Assembly (NCBI GenBank): GCA_004022145.1
Contig: RCNU01000008.1
DNA from: Paecilomyces variotii
Lineage: Eukaryota
Reading direction: 5' to 3' (one strand)
Length of the DNA: 64,000 nucleotides
The notes under the pieces: model-generated
The model's input: only the letters and a program-made list of their open reading frames with translations
The model's database searches: none
Told to the model about the DNA's origin: nothing
Program-made: the position numbers and the translations under genes
Shown: positions 12,870 through 33,606 of the stretch, in pieces
Position numbering within the stretch: the stretch's first letter is position 1
Layout: each line of letters opens with the position of its first letter

Positions 12870-15228
12870 ATGGCTGCAACAATTTCCAGTGGCCTCCAGA
12901 AGGCCCAGGATGTCATCAAGAGTGCTGCTTCCAAGGACAAGAAGGTGGTGGATCTGGCGCGCAACACAGAAAACGTCAACGAATCCAAGGAGACTTTGAG
13001 AAGTGACCACGGCGTCGCTATCAGCGATACTGACCACTGGCTGAGAGTCGTGGACAAAAACCACACGGGCCCATCATTGCTGGAGGACCAGTTTGCCAGA
13101 GAAAAGGTAAGAGGAGTCCTCGTGTAATTGTTGGACCCAAACCGTGGCAATTGCTAAACACCTTGCAGATTCATCGTTTCGACCATGAGCGTATTCCGGA
13201 ACGAGTAGTGCATGCCCGTGGAACTGGTGCCTTTGGAAACTTCAAGCTCAAGGAGAGCATTGAGGAGCTTACTTCTGCCGGCATTTTGACCGACACCTCA
13301 CGAAACACTCCCGTCTTCGTCCGCTTCTCGACAGTGCAGGGAAGCAAGGGCAGTGCCGATACCGTCCGTGATGTTCGAGGATTTGCCGTCAAGTTCTACA
13401 CCGACGAGGGTAACTGGGATATTGTCGGAAACAACATTCCTGTCTTCTTCATCCAGGATGCCATTAAGTTCCCCGACTTCGGTCCGTACACTGATGCCGC
13501 TGTTGAAATCGTTTGGGTCTGCTAACTCTTGTGTTAGTTCACTCCGTCAAGCCTGAACCTCACAACGAGGTTCCCCAAGGACAGTCAGCTCACAACAACT
13601 TCTGGGACTTCGTCTTTCTTCACCCGGAGGCCACGCACATGTTCCACTGGACCATGTCTGACCGTGCTATCCCACGATCTTACCGTATGATGCAGGGATT
13701 TGGTGTCAACACATTCAGCCTGGTCAACAAGCAGGGCAAGCGCCATCTTGTCAAGTTCCACTGGATCCCTCACCTTGGTGTTCACTCTCTGGTCTGGGAT
13801 GAGGCTCTGAAGCTGGCTGGACAGGACCCTGACTTCCACCGCAAGGACCTCATGGAGGCCATCGACAACAAGGCATACCCCAAGTGGGACTTTGGAATCC
13901 AGGTGATTCCCGAGGAGGACCAGGACAAGTTCGAATTCGACCCTCTGGATGCCACCAAACTCTGGCCCGAGGATCAGTTCCCCGTCCGCATTATTGGAGA
14001 GATGGAGCTGAACCGGAACGTGGACGAATTCTTCCCCCAGACTGAGCAGGTTGCTTTCTGCACCAGCCACATCGTCCCCGGTATCGAATTCTCCAACGAC
14101 CCTCTGCTCCAGGGCCGTAACTTCTCCTATTTTGATACTCAGATCACCCGTCTGGGCCCCAACTGGGAAGAGCTCCCAATCAACCGACCTGTCTGCCCCG
14201 TCCTGAACCACAACCGCGATGGCGCTATGCGTCACAAGATCACCGCTGGCACGGTGAACTACTGGCCAAACCGTTTCCAGGCTGTCCCTCCAACGAAGCC
14301 TGAGAACGGCGGATTTGTCTCTTACCCGGAGAAGAACCAGGGCTTCAAGCAGCGTGCTCTGAGCGACAAGTTCCGCGAGTACCACAAGCAGGCCCAGTTG
14401 TTCTATAACTCCATGTCGGAACACGAGAAGCTCCACATGGCCAAGGCCTTCAGCTTTGAGCTGGACCACTGCGATGACCCCATCGTTTACGAGCGTATGG
14501 CACTGCGTCTGGCTGAGATCGATCTCGGCCTTGCCCAGAAGGTTGCTGAGAATGTTGGTGCTCCTATCCCCACCAAAGCCCTTATGGTGAACCATGGCAA
14601 GACCGCACCGCATCTCTCTCAACTCGAATTCGCACCCAGGGTGCCAACCATCGCGAGCCGTCGCATCGCTATCCTCATCGGAGACGGTTATGACCCTGTC
14701 GCTTTCACTGGCATCAAGAACGCTGTCAAGGCCGCCAAGGCCCTACCTTTCATCATTGGTACCAAGCGCTCTCCTATCTTCGCCGACGGCGAGGACAAGT
14801 CAACTAGCAAGGGTGTTACCCCAGACCACTTCTATGACGGTATGCGCTCGACCATGTTCGATGCGACCTTCATCCCCGGTGGTTCGCACATCAAGACCCT
14901 GGCCAAGAACGGCCAGATCAGGTACTGGATCAGCGAAACCTTTGGCCACCTGAAGGCTCTCGGTGCTACCGGCGAGGCTGTCGACCTCGTCAAGGAAACC
15001 CTCTCCATCGTGCCCGGTCTCAAGGTCGCCAACGCCGGCAGCAGCGGCGTCACAGAATGGTACGGTGTCGTCACTGCCCACGGTACGCAAAAGCCGGAGA
15101 ACTTCAGCGAGACCATCAAGATCCTCAAGGACGCCAAGGACTTTGTTGGCCAGTTCTTCTACCAGATCTCTCAGCACAGGAACTTCAAGCGTGAGCTGGA
15201 CGGTTTGGCCTCGACGGTTGCTTTCTAA
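12870..15228 (+). CDS. catA: Large-subunit monofunctional catalase A (conidial type)
   Basis: [15 protein letters not shown] (distal His), [13 protein letters not shown] (proximal Tyr) and a C-terminal DJ-1/GATase-like domain; no signal peptide. Introns 13107-13168 and 13482-13537. Confidence 0.95.
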
Positions 15229-23647: not shown

Positions 23648-25690
23648 TCATAGCCTGCTGGTGCGATTAATGACTCCCTGGGTCTTATCGGAACGGGGCG
23701 TCTCGTACTTGACAAGACGGTCAATAAAAGCATCCCATGCGCCTTGGGAAAGGATGGGTGCATCGCAATACGGCCCAGCACCAGTTCCCTCAAGAAGCTC
23801 CTCAAGGCGCGGCAAGACAGCGTTCAAGGCCTTCTCCTCCATCATAAACTGGGCTTCCCGGCCCAACCCGGCGTGTTGGACGTACCAGCTAGGGTCTTGC
23901 ATTATGGCACCAATCTCATAGAGTGCTAGCAGATCTGGGTGGACGCCTGCCTGCGAAGCTGCCTCATATGCCATGCGCTGGCCAATTGCCTCAATAAGGG
24001 GCTGGCAACGAGGAAGGATCAGATTGTTAAACTCATCACTGCGATGTCCGCCTTTTATGGTCTTCATCAAACCCCAGCATTCCTTGAACAGGCCTCTCTC
24101 GTGAAGTGCCAGCAAGCTCTGAGGGTTCCTTGGCGCTGGCATTTGATATCTCCCTAACAGAAGCTCGGAGGCTAGCCCTGTATTCAGATCATCAGCTGCT
24201 GTTCCATGCGCTACTCACGGTAGATTGTCACTTACGGATGCATAGTGCCAAGACGTCTCCCTCTGCAACTGAGATTCCTCTTCCTTCAAGCTGTGACTCA
24301 ATGATGTTGTTGTACTCAAAAAGGCCCTGTGCACCGCATCGTTCTGCTAGGGAGTGGAGACTGCCTTGTGTAGCTTGATTGACCACTGCCTTAAGAACAG
24401 TCCCAATGCCATGACGGACTGGCCCTTCGATACGGGTGTCCACAAACAACCTGGCACTGTCCTCAGCATACGCATCGAATACATATACCTGCGCCAGGGC
24501 ATGCAGGATTGGACGCTGTTGTGTACGGAAGCCAATAATCGCCATTGGCTTGTTATGTGATCCTTGGACTGTTCGTCGCATGCTGTACTTTCCAGCCACA
24601 TAGAGACCTCTCTTTAGCATCGGTATCATGGAAGTCGAAAGGGCGAGAGTGCCAACGCCAACGCGCCAGATAGTGGCCAGAAAGTTTAAACGCATGTTGA
24701 CAGGTGTATCGAGAGATCCTAGAAGTGCTGAACCCGGTAAACGTACGTGGTTAAAGTACGTTAGAGAATGATCGACAGGTTTTGAGCCAGTCCTGCGAGG
24801 GAGGACCCTGTGACGAGAATGTTAGTCGCACAAATAACAAGGTAATATGAGATTTAACATAGCAACCTACTTGCATGTAACGCCATCACACATCTTATGG
24901 CCATCGTTCAGCCAGACAATGAACGGTCTAACACCGCGATCTTCGCCTTTGACGATGAGTCGGGCGATAACAACAGCTACGCGTGGAAGCCCTACTGGAG
25001 ACGTTGGCGGCATGTACCTAAAAGACGTTGTCAATAACGTTCGTATTTCGTTTCTGATGAAACACCTTACTTTGCTGCATTTGCAGTCGGGGTGTGGAAG
25101 TCAAATTCGCCATTTGGGAGAAGTGTAGCCCTGGTCTCAAGGTTGGCAGCATCCAGACCGTGTCCAATTTCTGTTAAGAGGAACTGAGCACTGTAACGCT
25201 TGTTAGTATCGGGTGATGAGAGTAGGAAGTTCAGTGCACTTCTAGTGAGATACTTACGAATAGTTGAACTGCAAGATATTGTCCATAAGCTGCACAAGAT
25301 CGGGTCTTTTCTTCATGTAGGGTGCAATTGTCCCTGCAGCAAGATTGTACTGGATAGTCACCAGCGTAAGAGCTGCAGCATCCATGCCCATGGCCATATC
25401 GGTATGCATCTGCCAGAACTTTGGAGTGAGATGCAGCACATCTTGGACGGTAAGACCTGGGTGAGAACGTCAGTCAATGTTTCCTTCATCTCTCATGAAG
25501 TGAATGGGTAGATACCGTATGCTCTTCCTATGGCCTGGGCTCGAAGGTAACTGACAGCAACAGATTCAGCTGGAGCTGACTGATGAGAATATGGTTTGAA
25601 TAACTCTTGGCTGAGAAGGGACAGGGTTGGTGTGCCCTGGACATTTTCGTTCCCGTGGGAATTTTCAGGGAGGTGGACCTGTGTGCTCAT
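23648..25690 (-). CDS. Acyl-CoA oxidase/dehydrogenase-family protein with PTS1 (-SRL)
   Basis: LTEIGHGLDAANLETRAT, FDFHTP..AAK, ERCGAQGL and EGDVLAL motifs across several exons; C-terminus ends TSRL*. Confidence 0.9.
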
Positions 25691-28612
25691 CTTGAAGACA
25701 CCGCCAGATGTGTGATTGTCTGGATCAAGTCTCGACATGAGGTCTGAAGGGGGAGCAATATATACTCCCTTTCTGGACCTACTGAGGAGACTTAGAAATC
25801 CTTCGAAGTGAGGGACAATATCCACTCGTCGACCTCCGTGGAGGTTTAGGCGCGGAGGTGAGTGGCTTCTGTATCCTACCGCGGGAGGAACCATCGGATA
25901 CCGTTATCACCGTGGGCCAGCCCCGTAGTGAATACTCCCGTATACTTGTGTTATTACCCTTAGCGTTGTCATCATGTGGAGATTTTAACATCGTAGTCTC
26001 CGATTCAAACCTAAGAATTCCTCTAACACTGCTTAGTGCTATGACTTTCAGGGTCTTGATTCGGAGATCATGAATCTCACCGTCATAAGAGGAGGGGCTG
26101 GGCAGAAATTGACGATAAGATAGAGATCTGCTATACTATAGCAGATGTCTTATGACCTATGTACCCCCACCCCGTCATTCTCGGATAAGAAATATCTATC
26201 CTATTATGATGAATTACATTGGAGTGGAGCGTCTCAACCGAGTCAACTCGAGCGGTGAACAATACTTCACCATATGCAAACCATCCATAATAGCAACCCA
26301 TCATACAGCAGCGTGGCTTGTGTAGTTGCAAAGACATTTGGAGCAGTAATGAACGTACTGGAGAAACGGACGGCATTTCTTGCCGCGAACTACCGTTATG
26401 ACAGGTCCCTAGCAGTATACAAAGAAGCTGGAGGTGTTGCATATATCAAACTATCAGTATCCATAAGCTTTCTGTTTGTCCTCGTGGACGTGATGGTTAC
26501 TAGAGGAATTCGCCAATCATACTTGGACCTGTGCTGCCCTGTCGACAGGGGCAATACACCTGATCAAATTTTCAGTGGCTGCGCTTGTAGTAAAAAATAA
26601 CGGCGGCTACATTGAGGGCCAGTAGTTCCTCTAGTGCTGTGATCAAAGTGGTGGTGCATGGTCGTCCTCCGCACGAGTTGATCTGCAATTCTTCAGCCAA
26701 GATGTAGATCCTAGGTGCCCAATGATACTTGGGGTCCAAGCTCAGCATGCAGCACTAGGAATAGCAAACCATGCAGACGTCAGGATTCGGCAGTTTGTAC
26801 CTGCTTGTTGACGTGACGCCATGAAACATTTCGATTCGACTGTATGAAAAATATCGCGGCAAAGGCTGCAGGGTACTCCCCTCCATGTACTTGACCAGGT
26901 TCATGGATCCTCAGAGAGACAAGTGTAGAAGTTACCTCTCGATACTTCCCACGACTAGGCAACTTGCTAGTTCGCTTTAACAGAGTAATAGCTGCCATCT
27001 ATCCAGGGACAGAGGATCCTTGCGTGGGTATGCTCTCCGATTCCAGTGGCCCTTCACGGCATCTTCCTTGACAGTGTGCTGCAACAGAAGCCGAACTGGG
27101 CTGGACATGTAGCGAAAGAGCTCCGCTGCATAAACATTTGCTTTCGGGAGCCTACATCTCTGGTCTGAAAGCAGCCCTGTTTGTTAACTCGAGCTTGCAC
27201 CATGCTTCGTATACCAAATTGTGCATCTATCCGAATGTACCAAATGTGCGGCACCCCTGGCCGAGAGCTCGAAGTCCCTGCGGCGGTTCGTATGGTCGAT
27301 ATCCGATGACCCTGGACAAGTGGAAGCTTGGACACCGTTTACGCTAGGGTTCTAAAAGTCCCTACAGAAAACTAGGGACTACCCGCCGTGGGGATACTTA
27401 GAGGCGGGAATACCAGTTTGCCTGAACTTTGAAGACCCCGGTGTTCGATTTTCCCTCGGGTATTATGTGGGACTGCCGTTCTATCCCACATCCTTTAAAT
27501 TAAGAATTATGGAGACCAGCGGTTTCTTAATTCTCCGCACTGGAGATTTTGACGTACGAGCCATTGTCGCAGCTAGGGAAGTTTGAACAGTGGGGAAGAT
27601 CGCCTGGAGTTGACGTTAGTCTATCAGTGAGCGACAAGGGCTTCAGGACCCTGACAAGGAAAATGACACTCTACTCCGTATGATGTGCTGGATCTGGCCT
27701 GACGTGCAGGAAGGGTCCCCCAAAGATCTATATATCTAATTCTACTTACCAGGGTATGTCGGGAAGCTGTCTCCGGATGTTCTTCCAAGGGTTTTGAGCT
27801 CCCTGGTCGCACAAGATAGAAGCCGGAGAAGTGCATAAAAATAGGCTTTGGATGACTAGTAAACTCATGAAGGAAATGACTGATTCCACCGGCCACGGGC
27901 ACGGCCCGGAGCGCCCTCAGATTAATCACATCTGAACTGCTCTAGAGTTTTGGCGTGAGGTGAGAAATTAGTCCAGTCATCAGAGGCGACGACCGTCCGT
28001 GTGTTTCCTGTGGCAAGCGATGATCGGCTACCATCTTTTCGACGCACCTTGACAGGATCAGTAACATCGAATCCTCCAGCAGACAATGTGAAGAAACTCA
28101 TCTTACAGCTAATACTCGACGCTACTTTAGACATATGTCAGCGCGGGCGGCATTCGCGGCCACCAGTTCGATTGAGAATGCCAAAAGGAGAGGCTCGCAT
28201 GATCAGTTACTAGCGCTGAGCTGGCCTAGTTTGTTGCCGGTCGCCTCTCTTAAGCACTTCTCGCGCTCTTTGTCCACGAATGAACAATTTTCTCTCTCCA
28301 TAGGCTATCACGCTATGCTCTCTAGCTCCTTCTAAAACTCGGATGGTGCCGGCCTTGGAGATCCAAACAAAACACAAAACCCGACAATGCCTAGCAGCGT
28401 CGTCGGCTGTTGCCCTACAGAATGATACTGCGCATGATAGTTCTAATCTCCGAAACAGATAAAAGGTGATATAGTATCCTATTACTAGAGGAAAATACTC
28501 TCGTGGAGACCTCCTTGGGCATCACCTGAGTCATTTAACCAGCTCCTGGACAAATAGAATTATTGCAATCAGGATTAAAAGCACACTGGCTAAATGTCTG
28601 CCCAAGCTCATG

Positions 28613-30439
28613 CTACCAGACAAGGATTTCATTCCTTTTCGGTGTGGTGGAGGCTTTCGTATCAAAGGATAGCTTGTCTTTGCAATCAAGTTCTTTGCAT
28701 ACTGCACGTGGTCAACAAGGGAAAATAACAGATAATGGGAGAGACAAAAAAAGGACAGATATGCTCACAGAGGTCTGCTTGTAGAGATTTTGAGCTCCTT
28801 GTAGATCGCCTCAGTGTTGGGAATACTTCATGACCCAACGTTTTCTCCAGCTTGAGATGTGTCTTAAGGTGGAGGAGGATAGCATATTGCGATTCTGTCA
28901 TAGATGGTGGCCTGTTAGTACAGTATGGTATGTACAGTATGTCTATATCGCTCATTGGGAGATGGAGCTTGCTACAGGGATAATTACCTCGGCCAGTCTC
29001 GTTTGCAACGTCGATATTATCGTCACTATTGGCGCGATACCATCGAAGTAGTGTCAGTCACTAGCCTATAAGAATTAGTGGGTTACAGGCGGCTCATGGT
29101 GACCGGACATGTATCGGTGCACTTACCATATTCACGTTTCAGAAAGCTCACGAGGGGCTCATGAGGGGCTCATGAGGGGCTACTCGACGGGAGCTCAAAG
29201 AAAAGTACTTACTTTGATCTTCGAATTTCCGCTATTTCCGCAAGATAACCTTTCTCTATTTCCGTCACCCTATCTCGGAGCACTCTAGACAATTCTTTTG
29301 ATACTGTGGCGGCAGAGCTAGGTTGCTGGTTACGTCCGTACAAGTCGCAACGGATAAGGGTCTTGCGCTCCGAGTAGGGCAGAAAGCAGAGAGAATACAA
29401 CAACCCTGAACCCTGTATAGAGTACAATGACGCTGATGGGAAGATTCCTAGTTTTGCCGTATTTCCTGCCGGAGATGTCCTAATGAATAGACTAGTGAGG
29501 CCTGACAGTTTGGAGCGGGGGCTGCATCCTTGAAGATTTCCCAGATCGAAGCTACCAGGTTTCACTATACGACATATGAGCCTTTTCGCGCCTCACAATA
29601 ACGAACTGCCATCCGATCTTACCTGCCATCTTCCAGTTAAAAGCCCCTTCCAGCGTCCAGCCTGTCACCCAAGTCGAGTCTACTGTCAAACCATGGGAAG
29701 CCGCAAAATCATTCGACTGACTCGAATCGACCTCTGGCACTGAGGGACTCGCGTCCAGGTTGATAAAAATCAGTCCATAGTTGCTGGTGTGTGCATGAAT
29801 CTCGAATAGACCGTTCTGGGACTTATCGAATCCTGGCACGTCCTCGAAATGCGGGGCTTTGATGAGGTCACCCCGCGTGTTGTAGCTCCAGCCATGGTAT
29901 CGACAGCCAAGAACAGTTGACGAGCCGCATTCCTTTTTCGTGATTGTGTATGCTCTATGGCGGCACACGTTGTGAAAGGCTCTCACTATGCCATCTTTAC
30001 CTAGAATGAGAAAGACTGGGAAGCCGGCAATGTCTAATGAGTGATAATCTCCAGGCTTGGTGAAACGGCTGCGATGGGAGACATAGAGCCATGTCTTGAG
30101 CGAGAGAAGTGAGCACGGGCTGTTATTCGCCTTGAACTATAGCAACCCTGCACTGACCTTGCTGAAAATAGCACGCCTCTCTAATTCGAAGACGTCTTTG
30201 CCATTCCACCAGTTATCTGGAAACTCCGACTCCTTGGAAACGACTGACTGACATGCTTCTGCCGAGGACCGTGGCGATGCTGAGGTGGATATCCTCGAAG
30301 ATGGTCTCTTTGCCTGTTTTCCAGCCTTATCATTCGATGATATGGCAACTTTTCTATAAAATAAATAGGAACCGGCCAATAAGCCCACCAGTATATACGT
30401 CGACGCCAGCGATGAAGGCAAGCTCAGAATCTCGTACAT
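28613..30439 (-). CDS. Rieske [2Fe-2S] oxygenase alpha-subunit homologue: intact Rieske domain, degenerate catalytic domain, N-terminal membrane anchor
   Basis: Hydrophobic N-terminus; FELERRAIFSK|TW; HNVCRHR and CRYHGWSY ligand motifs; NWKMA is not followed by E/DxxH..H. Predicted 3' exons end HLKTHLKLEK..LCKELDC..ILVW* (TAG 28613-28615). Confidence 0.88.
29152..29181. repeat. 11-bp tandem repeat (GAGGGGCTCAT, about 2.7 copies), intronic
   Basis: gaggggctcat gaggggctcat gaggggct inside predicted intron 29026-29212. Confidence 0.85.
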
Positions 30440-31080
30440 CGTATAGGCGATCTATGAAGAAGTGAGACAAAGCGTAATGATTTTTTCTTTTTTTCCTTTC
30501 TGGACCAATCCACAAATCCGAATTAGCAGCAACTTCTCAATGGCAATACTCTGAGTGTGTCCTTATACCTTTTTCATTTCGGTCCGACCGCTGCCAATTT
30601 CTCTCTGCAGAATCATCCCGACCGAGACACGGACGCGCCTAGAAGTAGCACCGTGAGAGCTTAACACAGAAGAACCGCTATCCAAACCAAAAGTTGAGAG
30701 ATCTATTCGACAGTACAGGTTTCCAAATTGGGTGCGATGATCCAGGAACATCTAAATGGCTGCTGTTCCCGCTCTTAGCGCAGGTGTCTGCGTGATCTCC
30801 AACCTGTTATGTTATCTGTATGGGAAGTGCCGTGTGAGAACTTGTTTCATTGGATAACCTGATGGATAGAATGGACACTCCAAGAGATAGCGTTGATGAT
30901 CCAATGCGATGGCTTTCAATATGAACTGGCGCAAAATAGATGAATTATCACTACCAGCAGGAATACGTGGCTAGCTGCTACTTAAGTACGACACGGACCT
31001 CCCGTTCCATTTTACTGTGGTTTTTGTAACTTGAGATTTTCTCGACTGATGACAGACCACATAGTCATCTAACTAGTTAA

Positions 31081-32282
31081 CTATGCAACGCTCGAAACAA
31101 CCCCAGGAGCAAGTTCCCTTTCTGGCTCAGGTCCGTGCTCGGTCTCGACCAGCTTAAGCTTCTCTGATTCGTATTGCTCGCAGACCAAATCGAAAACTCG
31201 TTCTTGATAAACTGCATGGTTTGTATAGTCAGATGAGCAAGCACGCAATGGGTCATAATCTTCAGGATGCTCACAGGCAACACCGGACTCTTTTTCCGGA
31301 TTCAGAATCCCTTCATTATAGACGCCTTTCTGGAGATTCTCCTGTGCTTTCTCGCACAACTCGAAATCCTCCATGGCGACCTGACGGACGAATTTGTAAT
31401 ATTCTTCAAATCGGTCTCCCGATTCCAAATGGTAGTAGTCGAACTCCATCCGGGTCACGTTCGGGTCTGCTGTTGGGCAGACGCGGAACGAAGACATGCC
31501 TCCGCCGTAGACGTTCAATGTGCAATTGGGGAAGAAATAAAGGAACAAACCATCATCAGGCTTCTTAGGATCCGCCACATGTTGTGAGAAATTCTTGTGA
31601 TTGTATACCGTATAGAACGTTGGTGGATAATATACGGAGAACGATGGATGAGTATACTGGCAATGTAGACATTCCTGGTATCCGTCAACCCTGTATTATT
31701 AGTTGGTATGAATTCGCTTTGCCACAATATAGTGCACAAACATCGTTTTCCAGTTGAAGTTTCCCTCGTACTTAATGCTGCGTCGGTACGGGCGTTTTGT
31801 GAAGTCTACCCTCTCCAGCAGCGGCTCCAAATCGGGATAGAACTCATGAAAACTAGGCGCATCGTTGGATAGAGTAGCGAAGACGAGTCCGGTAGGAGTC
31901 ACATGGTTCCGCAGTTCAGTTCCCTTAATGGCATGTTAACAATCGTCGTTCTGCATGATAATTCTGTCAAAATGGAAACTTCGTACATCCTTAACAACGG
32001 TGACCTTGATATCACCTGGTCCAGGAAAAGCGCCATTCGAACTTGTTCTGAAGGCGCAAATATGCTGTTGAGCTATTTCATATTCAACTTTCTCCCCGAT
32101 ATTGAGGAAACGAGTGACGGGACCAAGAAGGTACCAGGACTATCGCAAAACGTCAGTACTTATCACCTGGGATATGATTATTCTGTCGAATATACCTTCA
32201 TAAACACACCCCGTCTCTCTAGTTGATAAAGGGGCAAGCTCCGATACCACGAGGCCGGTAGGGTCCTTGTTAGTTCCGACAT
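31081..32282 (-). CDS. Choline/carnitine-monooxygenase-like alpha subunit: intact catalytic domain, no Rieske cluster ligands
   Basis: Five exons (introns 32140-32195, 31924-31986, 31691-31741, 31212-31274): MSELTRTLPASWYRSLPLYQLERRGVFMK|SWYLLGPVTRF...VVKD|GTELRNHVTPTGLVF...NWKTM|VDGYQECLHCQYTHP...QVAMEDFELCEKAQ. No CxH or CxxH pair in the Rieske region. Confidence 0.88.
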
Positions 32283-33606
32283 CTTCAGCAGTACTTCTAT
32301 TTCTATGACAATCAGATAGTACCTGTTGGAAGAAAGGTCCACCTTTTGAATATCTGCCGTATTCTCATATTCTACGTGTCTACATAATTATATTGAACGA
32401 ATTCCCTTGCTGTCCTGCCTGTCCGTTTTATTGGCTAGGTATAAGCTTTCCTGAAATGGTTATCTGATCCCGATGCAGATGTGATGCAGGCCATCAGCGA
32501 GTCGGCACGCCCGACATCCTTCATAGTACAGTAGTAGGTACGGGGATAGTTAACTTGGGATTTATCACGCAGATGACTAAACATGTCTCGCGGATTGGTT
32601 TATTATGTTATTCCAACGCAAATAAGAACGGATATCGACGTGCTGAGTATTTATTGGCCCACAGTAACAAGTCTGCCACGACCTGAAAGTACAATATGCT
32701 GGAGATCCACGTGGGAACACTCAGTGGTGCATCGAATAGTCGATCTGTAAGTCCTCTTACAAATTCTTCATCTGCGATAAGTGCCCGCATAGCAAGTAAA
32801 GCGTTTCTAATCAGATTGTTCGAGATATTCCCCGGCAATAGTTCTTTATCTCAAACTGCTAATACTCTGCACTCATCATTTTGAAAGTTCTCCGGTAACC
32901 TAAATTTTGTTCTGAAATGCATAATCTTTCGAAGATCCGTAATGTGCTGATAGTGACGCAAGGCACATAGACCTGATATTGAGAACAGACAGGAGTGCGA
33001 CCTGTTTGTTAGCATGATTATGACGAACAGCGCCTCATGTGATACTCTAAGGTATGCTATCATACCCTCATTAAAATGGTCTCTATCTTCTCAGAAGCAG
33101 TGGTCAGAGAACTCAGGAAATACCTCGAACTGGATAAATCACTACCTTCTGGTCTAAGCAATATTCGTGCGCTACTGTTGCTTTTGCTGTTGCCTGGTCT
33201 TGGCCCTTGTTGAATCGCACAGCCACAGAAGCTTCAGGCGGGATGAAGAGGAACAAAGAGATGACTTCTCACTTGGAGCAAGAATATATCCAGTTGCGAT
33301 ATTCACGAACAAGAAAGTCGTCAAGTTTTCTGAATACAGAGTGCTCCAAACCGTATCTTCCTCGTCTTATTGAGGGTGTTTGCGTGCGGAGTAGACTCAG
33401 AAAACCGAGTTGGTTAGACAAGCCCCACGATTACATACGTCGTGACGTCCCTCTCCGCGGATCAATCATTCATCGGATCCCGTGAAGCGGCCAGGCGACC
33501 TTCGGTATTCAGCGGCTCATACTTCTCAATCAACACGACTTCATCTCTCAGGAGGCCTTTTTCCTACAGAAGCAGGAGATGAACATCTGTTACTAAGAAG
33601 AACACC

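What the first reader, a model, noticed from the sequence alone, without database searches (positions are those of the whole stretch)
28613..32282. Tandem complementary half-enzymes: a candidate split (heteromeric) Rieske oxygenase
Seen: two same-strand homologues about 640 bp apart, both with the N-terminal P..W....ERR..F.K.W motif. Gene A (30439-28613) has the full Rieske ligand set (CRH...CRYH) but no iron-binding residues after NWK. Gene B (32282-31081) has DGYQECLHCQYTH and MED but no cluster ligands. Both have clean splice models with no internal stops. Established: in alpha3 Rieske oxygenases (choline monooxygenase/CntA type), electrons pass from the Rieske cluster of one subunit to the mononuclear Fe of the neighbouring subunit through a bridging Asp/Glu. 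Inference: A and B have reciprocally subfunctionalised and assemble as a hetero-oligomer, with A as electron relay and B as catalyst, possibly acting on a quaternary amine such as choline, carnitine or betaine.
Basis: partly seen in the sequence, partly recalled or inferred. Interest (0 to 1): 0.92.

Follow-up and report, generated by a model that had tools for sequence, protein, structure and literature searches.

The report
Two-gene split Rieske oxygenase in moulds
Two neighbouring fungal genes each keep only one of the two metal sites that a Rieske oxygenase needs, the pair stays together across many moulds, and it probably works as a two-protein enzyme that breaks down a choline-like compound.

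Summary
The window matches Paecilomyces variotii. Gene A (30439-28613, minus strand) keeps the Rieske CxH/CxxH ligands but has lost both iron histidines. Gene B (32282-31081, minus strand) keeps Y-x-E-C-x-H-C-x3-H plus the Asp ligand but lacks a 48-residue block holding all cluster ligands. RNA contigs show both genes spliced and polyadenylated separately. Both are conserved in Eurotiomycetes and Dothideomycetes: all 120 listed B hits carry only the catalytic Pfam domain, and 104 of 120 A hits only the Rieske domain. They are neighbours in 15 named assemblies and in 24 of 30 informative metagenome loci, in two orientations. A also keeps a membrane anchor and a C-terminal L-x-W tail like the cytosolic Fe-S assembly signal; B has neither. 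B carries the quaternary-ammonium (group Va, CntA-type) signature.

Best reading (0.6): an obligate two-subunit Rieske monooxygenase, with A as electron relay and B as catalyst. Physical binding was not tested. The simple "sister duplicates" origin is disfavoured (AU p = 0.014). My searches found no paper describing the pair. The closest precedent is bacterial NdmCDE. Verdict: new variant of a known kind, interest 0.68.

The parts
31081..32282 (-). Gene B: catalytic subunit lacking the Rieske cluster (322 aa). Exons: 32282-32196, 32139-31986, 31922-31741, 31689-31275, 31211-31081.
   Evidence: The spliced translation is identical to P0001. All four introns are seen as CT..AC joints in RNA contigs, X1 showing all four and X9 three. 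Only PF00848 is found.
31864..32139 (-). B residues about 30-100: remnant of the Rieske domain with no cluster ligands. A 48-column block present in A is missing here.
   Evidence: Alignment A1. No Cys or His is invariant in this stretch among 32 orthologues. The model is confident here, with block pLDDT 85-95 for residues 31-100.
31648..31680 (-). B motif Y145-x-E147-C148-x-H150-C151-x3-H155: aromatic cation-pi residue, bridging Glu, Cys pair and two iron-binding His.
   Evidence: Every named residue is invariant in 32 of 32 orthologues. The motif aligns to the CntA Y-M-E-C-Y-H-C-G-P-A-H segment. Roles of the CntA residues come from PMC7948474 and PMC10952381.
31366..31368 (-). B D249: the carboxylate of the 2-His-1-carboxylate iron site (M-E-D motif).
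   Evidence: Invariant in 32 of 32 orthologues. Aligned to the E-D of CntA and Stc2.
28613..30439 (-). Gene A: Rieske-cluster subunit with an iron-less catalytic-like domain (452 aa by RNA). Exons: 30439-30158, 30094-29623, 29564-29213, 29025-28988, 28894-28769, 28701-28613.
   Evidence: RNA joints. The frame is open. It matches P0121 apart from the micro-exon stretch. Only PF00355 is found.
30338..30415 (-). A residues 9-34: N-terminal hydrophobic helix, a probable membrane anchor.
   Evidence: Helix 9-34 in the model. 83 of 106 A-type proteins have a hydrophobic 19-mer in their first 70 residues, against 1 of 65 B-type proteins.
29894..29965 (-). A Rieske ligands C138, H140, C158 and H161 (C-R-H ... 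C-R-Y-H).
   Evidence: Invariant in 32 of 32 orthologues. Rieske Pfam hit. Aligned to CntA residues 40-220.
28625..29683 (-). A residues about 232-449: catalytic-domain fold without an iron site. There is no H-x4-H after N-W-K, and the carboxylate position is variable.
   Evidence: Sequence search against solved structures stops at the N-W-K motif. The whole-chain model still matches CntA over 342 of 343 residues, TM 0.70 by target. hhalign to the B family runs through this region.
28988..29025 (-). 38-nt micro-exon of A that is missing from the public annotation.
   Evidence: Joints 29025|29213 and 28894|28988 appear in X1, X2 and X9. Comparison with P0121.
28616..28624 (-). A C-terminal tripeptide L-V-W, resembling the [LIM]-[DES]-[WF] signal that recruits the cytosolic Fe-S assembly targeting complex.
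   Evidence: 80 of 106 A-type proteins end in W, and 49 of those 80 fit the strict motif. 0 of 65 B-type proteins end in W or F. The motif and its link to fungal choline monooxygenases come from bioRxiv 10.1101/2023.05.19.541488 (passages).
30440..31080 (-). Intergenic spacer between B's stop codon and A's start codon. It holds B's 3' end (poly(A) near 31005) and A's upstream region.
   Evidence: A loose T-run lies before 31005 in X9. The X1 contig that carries A runs on to 30970.

Best explanation
A and B are the two subunits of one Rieske non-heme-iron monooxygenase whose two metal centres sit on separate, paralogous alpha-type chains.

Proposed roles (inferred):
- A faces the cytosol and is usually membrane-anchored. 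It receives its [2Fe-2S] cluster through the cytosolic Fe-S assembly machinery, using its C-terminal L-x-W tail.
- A takes electrons from an unidentified reductase and passes them to B's mononuclear iron across the subunit interface, through B's bridging Glu147.
- B binds a small quaternary-ammonium substrate (choline-, carnitine- or betaine-like) against Tyr145 and oxidises it, probably cleaving or demethylating at nitrogen.
- The dead domains (B's cluster-less Rieske remnant and A's iron-less catalytic fold) are kept as docking scaffolds for head-to-tail assembly.

Shown: the complementary site loss, conservation, expression, gene linkage, the folds and the group Va signature.
Inferred: A-B binding, the electron path, the substrate class, the localisation and the stoichiometry.
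For: 1. Complementary sites hold family-wide. All 120 listed B hits carry PF00848 only. 104 of 120 A hits have no PF00848, and the other 16 are 644-820-aa B-then-A fused gene models. By motif, 115 of 120 B hits have only the iron motif and 106 of 120 A hits only the Rieske motif. The 3 short A hits that matched my loose iron pattern did so in the C-terminal tail.

2. In canonical enzymes the cluster and the iron of one chain are 44 A apart, and electrons cross to the neighbouring chain through the bridging Glu (PMC7948474). B keeps that Glu in 32 of 32 orthologues but has no cluster of its own.

3. Linkage.
Five of these have consecutive locus tags.
- Of 30 metagenome loci with at least 2.5 kb on both sides of B, 24 have an A-type gene 424-1257 bp away: 17 tandem and 7 divergent.
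- 40 of 45 adjacent A-type genes show both ligand motifs in the best match.

4. Both genes are constrained. The alignments span two classes of fungi.

5. Both genes are transcribed and spliced in RNA contigs X1 and X9.

6. The cluster ligands and the assembly tail go together. A has both and B has neither, as the published rule predicts.

7. In one locus type (L077/L078) both genes are broken together. B is a 92-residue remnant with an in-frame stop, and A has lost a His ligand.

8. Both models match the quaternary-ammonium oxygenases CntA and Stc2 best.
Against: - No test of A-B contact was obtained.
- 6 of 30 informative loci have no A-type gene within 7 kb of B (L054, L066, L071, L074-076), so linkage is not universal.
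- No reductase gene lies near the pair in the window. None recurs in the 13 related loci examined.
- A three-membered head-to-tail ring made of A and B can hold only one productive Rieske-to-iron junction, so the assembly must differ from the known alpha3 form in symmetry or efficiency. This is my reasoning and was not tested.
- A and B are not sisters in the tree.
- Contig depths for A and B differ in opposite directions in X1 and X9, and the tool states that contig depth cannot rank genes.
- The B model is of low confidence (mean pLDDT 63, and under 50 around the iron motif).
Confidence: 0.6

Rival explanations
1. The genes are functionally coupled, but there is no stable hetero-oligomer. 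A acts as a dedicated, membrane-tethered Rieske-type electron shuttle that docks only transiently on B, or on B oligomers, much as a ferredoxin would.
For: The linkage and complementary sites fit this reading equally well. The ring-symmetry problem disappears. A evolves about three times faster than B, with end branches of 0.29-0.93 against 0.11-0.34, as a looser partner might.
Against: A keeps a whole catalytic-domain fold, matching CntA over 342 of 343 residues, and that part has conserved positions. B keeps a confidently modelled Rieske remnant. A mere shuttle and its client would not need these domains.
Confidence: 0.17
2. A and B have unrelated jobs. B uses another electron source or a chemistry that needs no cluster, A serves another enzyme or acts as a sensor, and their adjacency is inherited gene order.
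For: 6 of 30 informative loci show B without an adjacent A. A and B are not sister lineages. Other fungal relatives also lack cluster ligands (P0262, P0264, P0273, P0284, P0344).
Against: Adjacency survives in two different orientations (17 tandem, 7 divergent), which points to retention after rearrangement. B keeps the bridging Glu, whose known role is electron intake from a neighbour's cluster. Both genes are decayed together in L077/L078.
Confidence: 0.15
3. One or both genes are decaying duplicates (pseudogenes), or the two are really a single gene wrongly split.
For: Each gene has lost a site that the canonical enzyme needs. 16 public gene models join B and A into one 644-820-aa protein.
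Against: The frames are open and the splicing is RNA-supported. Ligands are invariant across two fungal classes. B has its own stop codon and a poly(A) end near 31005. In 7 of 30 loci the genes are divergent and so cannot be fused. In strain variants of A, 12 changes are synonymous and 10 are not, and none of the 10 falls in the Rieske core, residues 96-230.
Confidence: 0.03

Closest known systems
Carnitine monooxygenase CntA with its reductase CntB (group Va Rieske oxygenase, PDB 6Y8J)
   Same: It is the best structural match for both A and B. B shares the Y-x-E-C-x-H-C-x3-H motif and the Asp ligand. Electron transfer between chains through the bridging Glu is the established mechanism (PMC7948474).
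   Different: CntA is a single chain with both metal sites that forms a homotrimer. Here the sites lie on two paralogous chains. No CntB-like reductase was seen nearby.
Yeast Cmo1, the putative choline monooxygenase of Scheffersomyces stipitis and other budding yeasts
   Same: It is the nearest canonical fungal relative. A nests among these proteins in the tree, and both have a C-terminal Trp tail. Cmo1 is thought to cleave choline to trimethylamine and glycolaldehyde (PMC5816127 passages).
   Different: Cmo1 is one 440-460-aa chain with both Pfam domains. Its biochemistry is itself uncharacterised. Orthology of the A/B pair to Cmo1 is not resolved.
NdmCDE N7-demethylase of Pseudomonas putida CBB5
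   Same: It is the precedent for a Rieske oxygenase whose catalytic subunit (NdmC) has no cluster and receives electrons from a Rieske cluster on another protein (PMC4408171 passages).
   Different: There the Rieske domain is fused to the reductase NdmD and a GST-like protein, NdmE, is required. Here the cluster sits on a full-length alpha-type paralogue with a dead catalytic domain. The system is eukaryotic, and no GST-like or reductase partner was seen.
Stachydrine demethylase Stc2 (group Vb, PDB 3VCA)
   Same: It is the best single-sequence match for B (E 3e-10) and a strong fold match for A.
   Different: Stc2 has Asn where CntA and B have the cation-pi Tyr. It is a single chain with both sites.
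Clients of the cytosolic Fe-S assembly targeting complex that carry a C-terminal [LIM]-[DES]-[WF] signal
   Same: A-type proteins end in L-D-W, L-A-W and similar tripeptides. Fungal choline monooxygenases are listed among such clients.
   Different: In this window the tripeptide is L-V-W, which departs from the consensus at the middle position. Recruitment was not tested.

Membership tests
Rieske non-heme iron oxygenase alpha subunit (canonical) | Rieske [2Fe-2S] ligands C-x-H ... C-x-x-H | tested here: met
   Met by A only: C138, H140, C158 and H161 are invariant in 32 of 32 orthologues. B is tested and does not meet it, because the 48-column block that holds these ligands is absent and it has no PF00355 hit.
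Rieske non-heme iron oxygenase alpha subunit (canonical) | 2-His-1-carboxylate mononuclear iron site | tested here: met
   Met by B only: H150, H155 and D249 are invariant in 32 of 32 orthologues. A is tested and does not meet it. There is no H-x4-H after N-W-K in any of 32 orthologues, and the carboxylate position is variable.
Rieske non-heme iron oxygenase alpha subunit (canonical) | Both metal sites on one chain | tested here: not met
   Neither A nor B has both sites. Neither gene alone is therefore a canonical member.
Rieske non-heme iron oxygenase alpha subunit (canonical) | Head-to-tail oligomer that brings one chain's cluster next to the neighbour's iron | not testable with these tools
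Group Va quaternary-ammonium Rieske oxygenases (CntA type) | Aromatic residue two positions before the bridging Glu, for the cation-pi contact (CntA Y203) | tested here: met
   B Y145 aligns to the Tyr of the CntA D-N-Y-M-E-C segment and is invariant. The definition comes from PMC7948474.
Group Va quaternary-ammonium Rieske oxygenases (CntA type) | Cysteine pair flanking the first iron-binding His (CntA C206/C209) | tested here: met
   B C148 and C151 are invariant and aligned. The feature is described in PMC10952381 (abstract).
Group Va quaternary-ammonium Rieske oxygenases (CntA type) | Activity on a quaternary ammonium substrate, with a dedicated reductase | not testable with these tools
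   This needs an enzyme assay. No reductase gene was found near the pair. No whole genome is held for this window.
NdmCDE-type split Rieske oxygenase | Catalytic subunit without a Rieske cluster | tested here: met
   B.
NdmCDE-type split Rieske oxygenase | The Rieske domain is carried by the reductase, and a GST-like structural subunit is required | tested here: not met
   A has only PF00355 and a catalytic-like fold, with no flavin or NAD domain. No GST-like gene was seen among the window's neighbours.
Cytosolic Fe-S assembly clients with a C-terminal targeting signal | C-terminal [LIM]-[DES]-[WF] | tested here: inconclusive
   The window's A ends in L-V-W. Among 106 A-type proteins 80 end in W, and 49 of those 80 fit the strict motif while 26 end in L-A-W or L-V-W. 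Binding to the targeting complex was not tested.

The most novel reading that the evidence does not exclude
A and B form an obligate hetero-oligomeric Rieske monooxygenase. It would be the first such enzyme in eukaryotes with the cluster and the iron site on separate paralogous alpha-type chains, each chain keeping the other's dead domain as a docking surface. A three-membered head-to-tail ring of A and B can contain only one productive junction. The enzyme must therefore run with a single active site per ring or adopt an assembly not yet seen in this family. It would stand in Eurotiomycetes and Dothideomycetes (Aspergillus, Penicillium, Histoplasma, Blastomyces and many plant-associated fungi) where budding yeasts have single-chain Cmo1. 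It would open an unstudied route of quaternary-amine breakdown, possibly choline to trimethylamine, in moulds.
Probability: 0.4. Interest if true: 0.8.

Novelty: new variant of a known kind. Interest (0 to 1): 0.68.

Why it matters
Rieske oxygenases are textbook homo-oligomers (alpha3 or alpha3beta3) in which every chain carries both metal sites. A widely conserved fungal pair that divides the two sites between paralogues would be a natural dissection of the inter-subunit electron path.

It would matter in four ways:
- It would pose a concrete structural question about how the assembly closes.
- It would be a natural example of the rule that the cytosolic Fe-S targeting tail travels with the cluster ligands.
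- It would correct current database names, where B is called "choline monooxygenase, chloroplastic" and A "iron-sulfur cluster-binding protein", and would flag the 16 fused gene models.
- If the substrate is choline or a related compound, it would identify an unstudied nitrogen-scavenging, possibly trimethylamine-forming, route in Aspergillus, Penicillium and dimorphic pathogens.

Tried and rejected
Tools that gave no answer:
- Whole-genome search: no genome is held for this window. Paralogues, a canonical single-chain copy and reductases elsewhere in the genome could not be sought.
- Complex prediction for A (residues 68-445) with B came back "NOT FOLDED" under a rule of the tool.
- The Atlas searches gave only Ascomycota clusters with generic names.

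RNA contigs:
- Run X2 gave no contig over B, and X4's contigs are unspliced. Neither bears on expression.

Leads dropped:
- P0318 first looked like an independent A-like form. Its closest relative is a 424-aa protein with both Pfam domains, and it comes from an unnamed assembly, so it is probably a faulty gene model.
- A peroxisomal-membrane (Mpv17/PMP22) neighbour was suggested by three fused Aspergillus models. It was not found between 26.1 and 28.5 kb of the window.
- No recurrent neighbour emerged apart from amino-acid permeases in 3 of the 13 loci examined (L040, L050, L077).

Literature:
- Five searches found no paper describing this fungal pair.
- Linder 2014 is not held. I know it only from citations.
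- Supplements of the bioRxiv preprint (its figures S2 and S3) could not be seen.

Earlier findings of this scan: nothing for this genome or sequence. Three bacterial group V notes turned up and do not bear on this pair.
Full report
WHAT IS THERE

The window is fungal. B's spliced product is identical to a Paecilomyces variotii protein (P0001), and A's Rieske exon is 99% identical to the neighbouring P. variotii protein P0121, which lies on the same 1,519,584-bp contig. P. variotii belongs to Eurotiales, Eurotiomycetes.

Both genes lie on the minus strand, with B upstream (32282-31081) and A downstream (30439-28613), 641 bp apart. Pfam finds a Rieske domain only in A (E 3.5e-16) and the Ring_hydroxyl_A catalytic domain only in B (E 2.6e-14).

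GENE MODELS AND EXPRESSION

Assembled RNA contigs of three runs carry spliced copies. X1 and X2 bear the organism's own label. X9 is a food-fermentation metatranscriptome.

- B's four introns are 32140-32195, 31923-31985, 31690-31740 and 31212-31274. All are CT..AC on the plus strand, that is GT..AG for a minus-strand gene. X1 shows all four and X9 three.
- Four of A's five introns appear in all three runs: 29565-29622, 29026-29212, 28895-28987 and 28702-28768.
- A's first intron appears in its canonical form (30095-30157) only in X9.
- Loose T-runs mark poly(A) ends near 31005 (B) and 28452 (A), so the genes give separate transcripts.

Spliced at these junctions, B translates to 322 aa and equals P0001. 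A translates to 452 aa. It differs from the annotated 445-aa P0121 only where RNA shows a 38-nt micro-exon (28988-29025) that the annotation lacks.

A fourth run, X4, gave only unspliced contigs and says nothing about expression. X2 gave no contig over B.

THE COMPLEMENTARY LOSS IS REAL AND FAMILY-WIDE

A and B are homologous over their whole length (hhalign probability 96%, E 3e-9, 273 columns). Aligned together:

- B lacks a 48-column block that in A contains both ligand loops (C-R-H ... C-R-Y-H).
- A has nothing in place of B's E-C-L-H-C-Q-Y-T-H.

Among 32 A orthologues the four cluster ligands are invariant, and none has H-x4-H after the shared N-W-K motif. Among 32 B orthologues Y145, E147, C148, H150, C151, H155 and D249 are invariant, and no Cys or His is invariant in the Rieske remnant.

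In the database listings:
- All 120 B hits carry PF00848 only.
- 104 of 120 A hits carry no PF00848. The other 16 are 644-820-aa models that join B and A.
- A motif count gives the same picture. The three short exceptions turned out to be chance matches in the tail.

FOLDS

The A model (mean pLDDT 76) has an N-terminal helix at residues 9-34. It matches CntA over 342 of 343 residues (E 4.9e-21, TM 0.70 by target), followed by Stc2. Sequence similarity to solved structures stops at N-W-K. A's C-terminal half is therefore a catalytic-domain fold without an iron site.

The B model is weak (mean pLDDT 63, and under 50 over residues 142-197) but is confident over the Rieske remnant. It also matches CntA best (E 3e-11).

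CONSTRAINT

B is very conserved: 74% mean column identity between Eurotiomycetes and Dothideomycetes. A is less so at 40%. In the tree, A's end branches are about three times longer than B's.

A related strain's contigs differ from the window at 32 listed sites in A: 10 intronic, 12 synonymous and 10 non-synonymous. Nine of the 10 non-synonymous changes fall in residues 231-345, one falls at residue 80, and none falls in the Rieske core. The sample is small. It fits strong constraint on the cluster domain and weaker constraint on the dead domain.

LINKAGE

Five of them have consecutive locus tags: Monascus, Rasamsonia, Polytolypa, one Aspergillus niger strain and one Penicillium malachiteum strain.

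A metagenome scan with the B alignment gave 79 loci. A local tblastn with A's Rieske region found an A-type gene beside B in 45 of them: 30 downstream on the same strand and 15 upstream on the opposite strand. Of the 34 loci without an A-type gene, 28 have under 2.5 kb on at least one side.

Among the 30 loci with at least 2.5 kb on both sides:
- 24 have an A-type gene within 424-1257 bp (17 tandem, 7 divergent).
- 6 have none within 7 kb (L054, L066, L071, L074, L075, L076).

Several loci are near-copies of one another and I did not collapse them, so independent lineages are fewer than these counts. In 40 of the 45 loci the best match shows both ligand motifs. Three of the remaining five matches are cut short. 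The other two (L077/L078) are a locus type where both genes are wrecks: A has lost a His ligand, and B is a 92-residue remnant with an in-frame stop.

Adjacency kept in two orientations, together with joint decay, argues for functional coupling rather than mere inherited order. The six loci without A show that coupling by position is not universal.

A SECOND ASYMMETRY: MATURATION AND ANCHORING

Of 106 A-type proteins, 80 end in Trp. The tripeptides are L-D-W (38), L-A-W (23) and others, and 49 of the 80 fit [LIM]-[DES]-[WF]. None of 65 full-length B-type proteins ends in W or F. That tripeptide is the published recognition signal of the cytosolic Fe-S assembly targeting complex. Fungal choline monooxygenases are listed among its carriers, and the signal is reported to be lost together with the cluster ligands (bioRxiv 10.1101/2023.05.19.541488, passages; its supplementary figures were not visible to me). 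The A/B pair follows that rule.

In addition, 83 of 106 A-type proteins have an N-terminal hydrophobic segment, against 1 of 65 B-type proteins. The Dothideomycete A proteins in alignment A2 lack it.

WHAT KIND OF OXYGENASE

B's motif aligns residue for residue with CntA's Y203-M-E205-C206-Y-H208-C209-G-P-A-H213. The CntA roles are:

| CntA residue | Role | Source |
|---|---|---|
| Y203 | cation-pi contact to the quaternary ammonium group; defines the subgroup | PMC7948474, |
| E205 | bridging glutamate, essential for electron transfer between chains | PMC7948474, |
| C206/C209 | cysteine pair, a group V hallmark | PMC10952381 abstract, |

Stc2 has Asn at the Tyr position. B is thus a group Va-type catalytic subunit, which supports a quaternary-ammonium substrate without saying which one.

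The nearest canonical fungal relatives are the single-chain Cmo1 proteins of budding yeasts. Cmo1 is thought, without biochemical proof, to cleave choline to trimethylamine and glycolaldehyde (PMC5816127). In the 120 hits listed for a yeast-type query, Eurotiomycetes appear only as fused A+B models. This hints that the pair stands where Cmo1 stands in yeasts, but the list is cut at 120 of 752 hits.

Neighbouring genes give little:
- The window has catalase, acyl-CoA oxidase, RabGAP, hexokinase and Hus1.
- In the 13 related loci examined, only amino-acid permeases recur (L040, L050, L077). No reductase recurs.

ORIGIN

In a 60-row tree, A and B are each one clade (support 100). A sits in the unresolved fungal Cmo1-like group. 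B, together with two unnamed 318-320-aa relatives, sits apart on a long stem next to the bacterial rows. Forcing A and B together costs 19 log-likelihood units (AU p = 0.014; 32 rows).

I named that group after seeing the first tree, and long branches are involved, so the result is weak. It does mean the simple story of one tandem duplication followed by reciprocal loss is not supported.

Other relatives without cluster ligands nest at separate places: P0262/P0264 inside the yeast clade, and P0344 beside P0288. Ligand loss may therefore be recurrent. These sequences are unnamed and I could not check their gene models.

MECHANISM AND VERDICT

The best-supported reading is a two-subunit enzyme. 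A is the cluster-bearing electron relay, cytosol-facing and often membrane-anchored. B is the catalyst. The dead domains are kept for head-to-tail docking.

- Shown: site complementarity, conservation, expression, linkage, the folds and the group Va signature.
- Inferred: binding, the electron path, the reductase, the substrate and the stoichiometry.

A three-membered ring of A and B can have only one productive junction, so the assembly is an open and interesting question.

The nearest precedent is bacterial NdmCDE, where the cluster-less NdmC is served by a Rieske cluster on the reductase NdmD, helped by a GST-like protein (PMC4408171). The fungal arrangement differs in that the cluster sits on an alpha-type paralogue.

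Five literature searches found no description of the pair. I rate it a new variant of a known kind.

Noticed in passing
window 30095-30171: For A's first intron, RNA contigs X1 and X2 skip 30109-30171, whose ends read GT..AG on the plus strand (the wrong sense for A). X9 shows the canonical 30095-30157. Both skips are 63 nt and in frame. The odd one changes four residues of the conserved E-R-R-A-I-F-S-K motif. It may come from an antisense transcript merged into the contig.
   Followed up: partly
window 28988-29025: The public annotation of A (P0121) misses a 38-nt micro-exon and uses another acceptor site. RNA gives a 452-aa protein instead of 445 aa, and the RNA version agrees better with orthologues in that stretch.
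   Followed up: yes
window 30440-30970: The X1 contig carrying A runs on 5' to 30970, about 35 nt from B's poly(A) site. This could be a long 5' leader of A, read-through from B, or antisense RNA. Contigs cannot tell which.
   Followed up: no
proteins P0262, P0264, P0273, P0284, P0344: These are further fungal Cmo1-like proteins without Rieske ligands, placed at separate points in the tree. Some end in Trp. Cluster loss may be recurrent in this family, or these may be faulty gene models.
   Followed up: partly
L077:7001-7969 and L078: In one locus type both genes are decayed. B is only its last 92 residues, with an in-frame stop. A is a fragment with C-Q-R in place of C-x-H.
   Followed up: partly
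L040:4214-6022, L050:2020-3339, L077:3935-5856: Amino-acid or APC-type permease genes lie next to the pair in 3 of the 13 loci examined. L040 also has a Zn2Cys6 regulator. This may be a small nutrient-use cluster.
   Followed up: no
proteins P0130, P0134, P0135, P0137, P0138, P0140, P0142, P0143, P0156, P0158, P0182, P0196, P0215, P0216, P0224, P0237: Sixteen public gene models of 644-820 aa join B and A into one protein. In this window the two genes have separate stop codons and poly(A) ends, so these fusions are probably annotation errors.
   Followed up: partly
window 29150-29190: Three head-to-tail copies of an 11-nt unit lie inside A's 187-nt intron.
   Followed up: no
window 13507-15228 and 23648-26135: A catalase gene and an acyl-CoA oxidase gene, both typically peroxisomal (recalled), lie downstream of A. 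RabGAP-TBC upstream of B is syntenic in L041 and L062.
   Followed up: no
window 28645-32500 (run X4): A metatranscriptome run holds unspliced contigs, about 2-4% different from the window, over both genes. This is genomic DNA or unprocessed RNA of a related strain.
   Followed up: no
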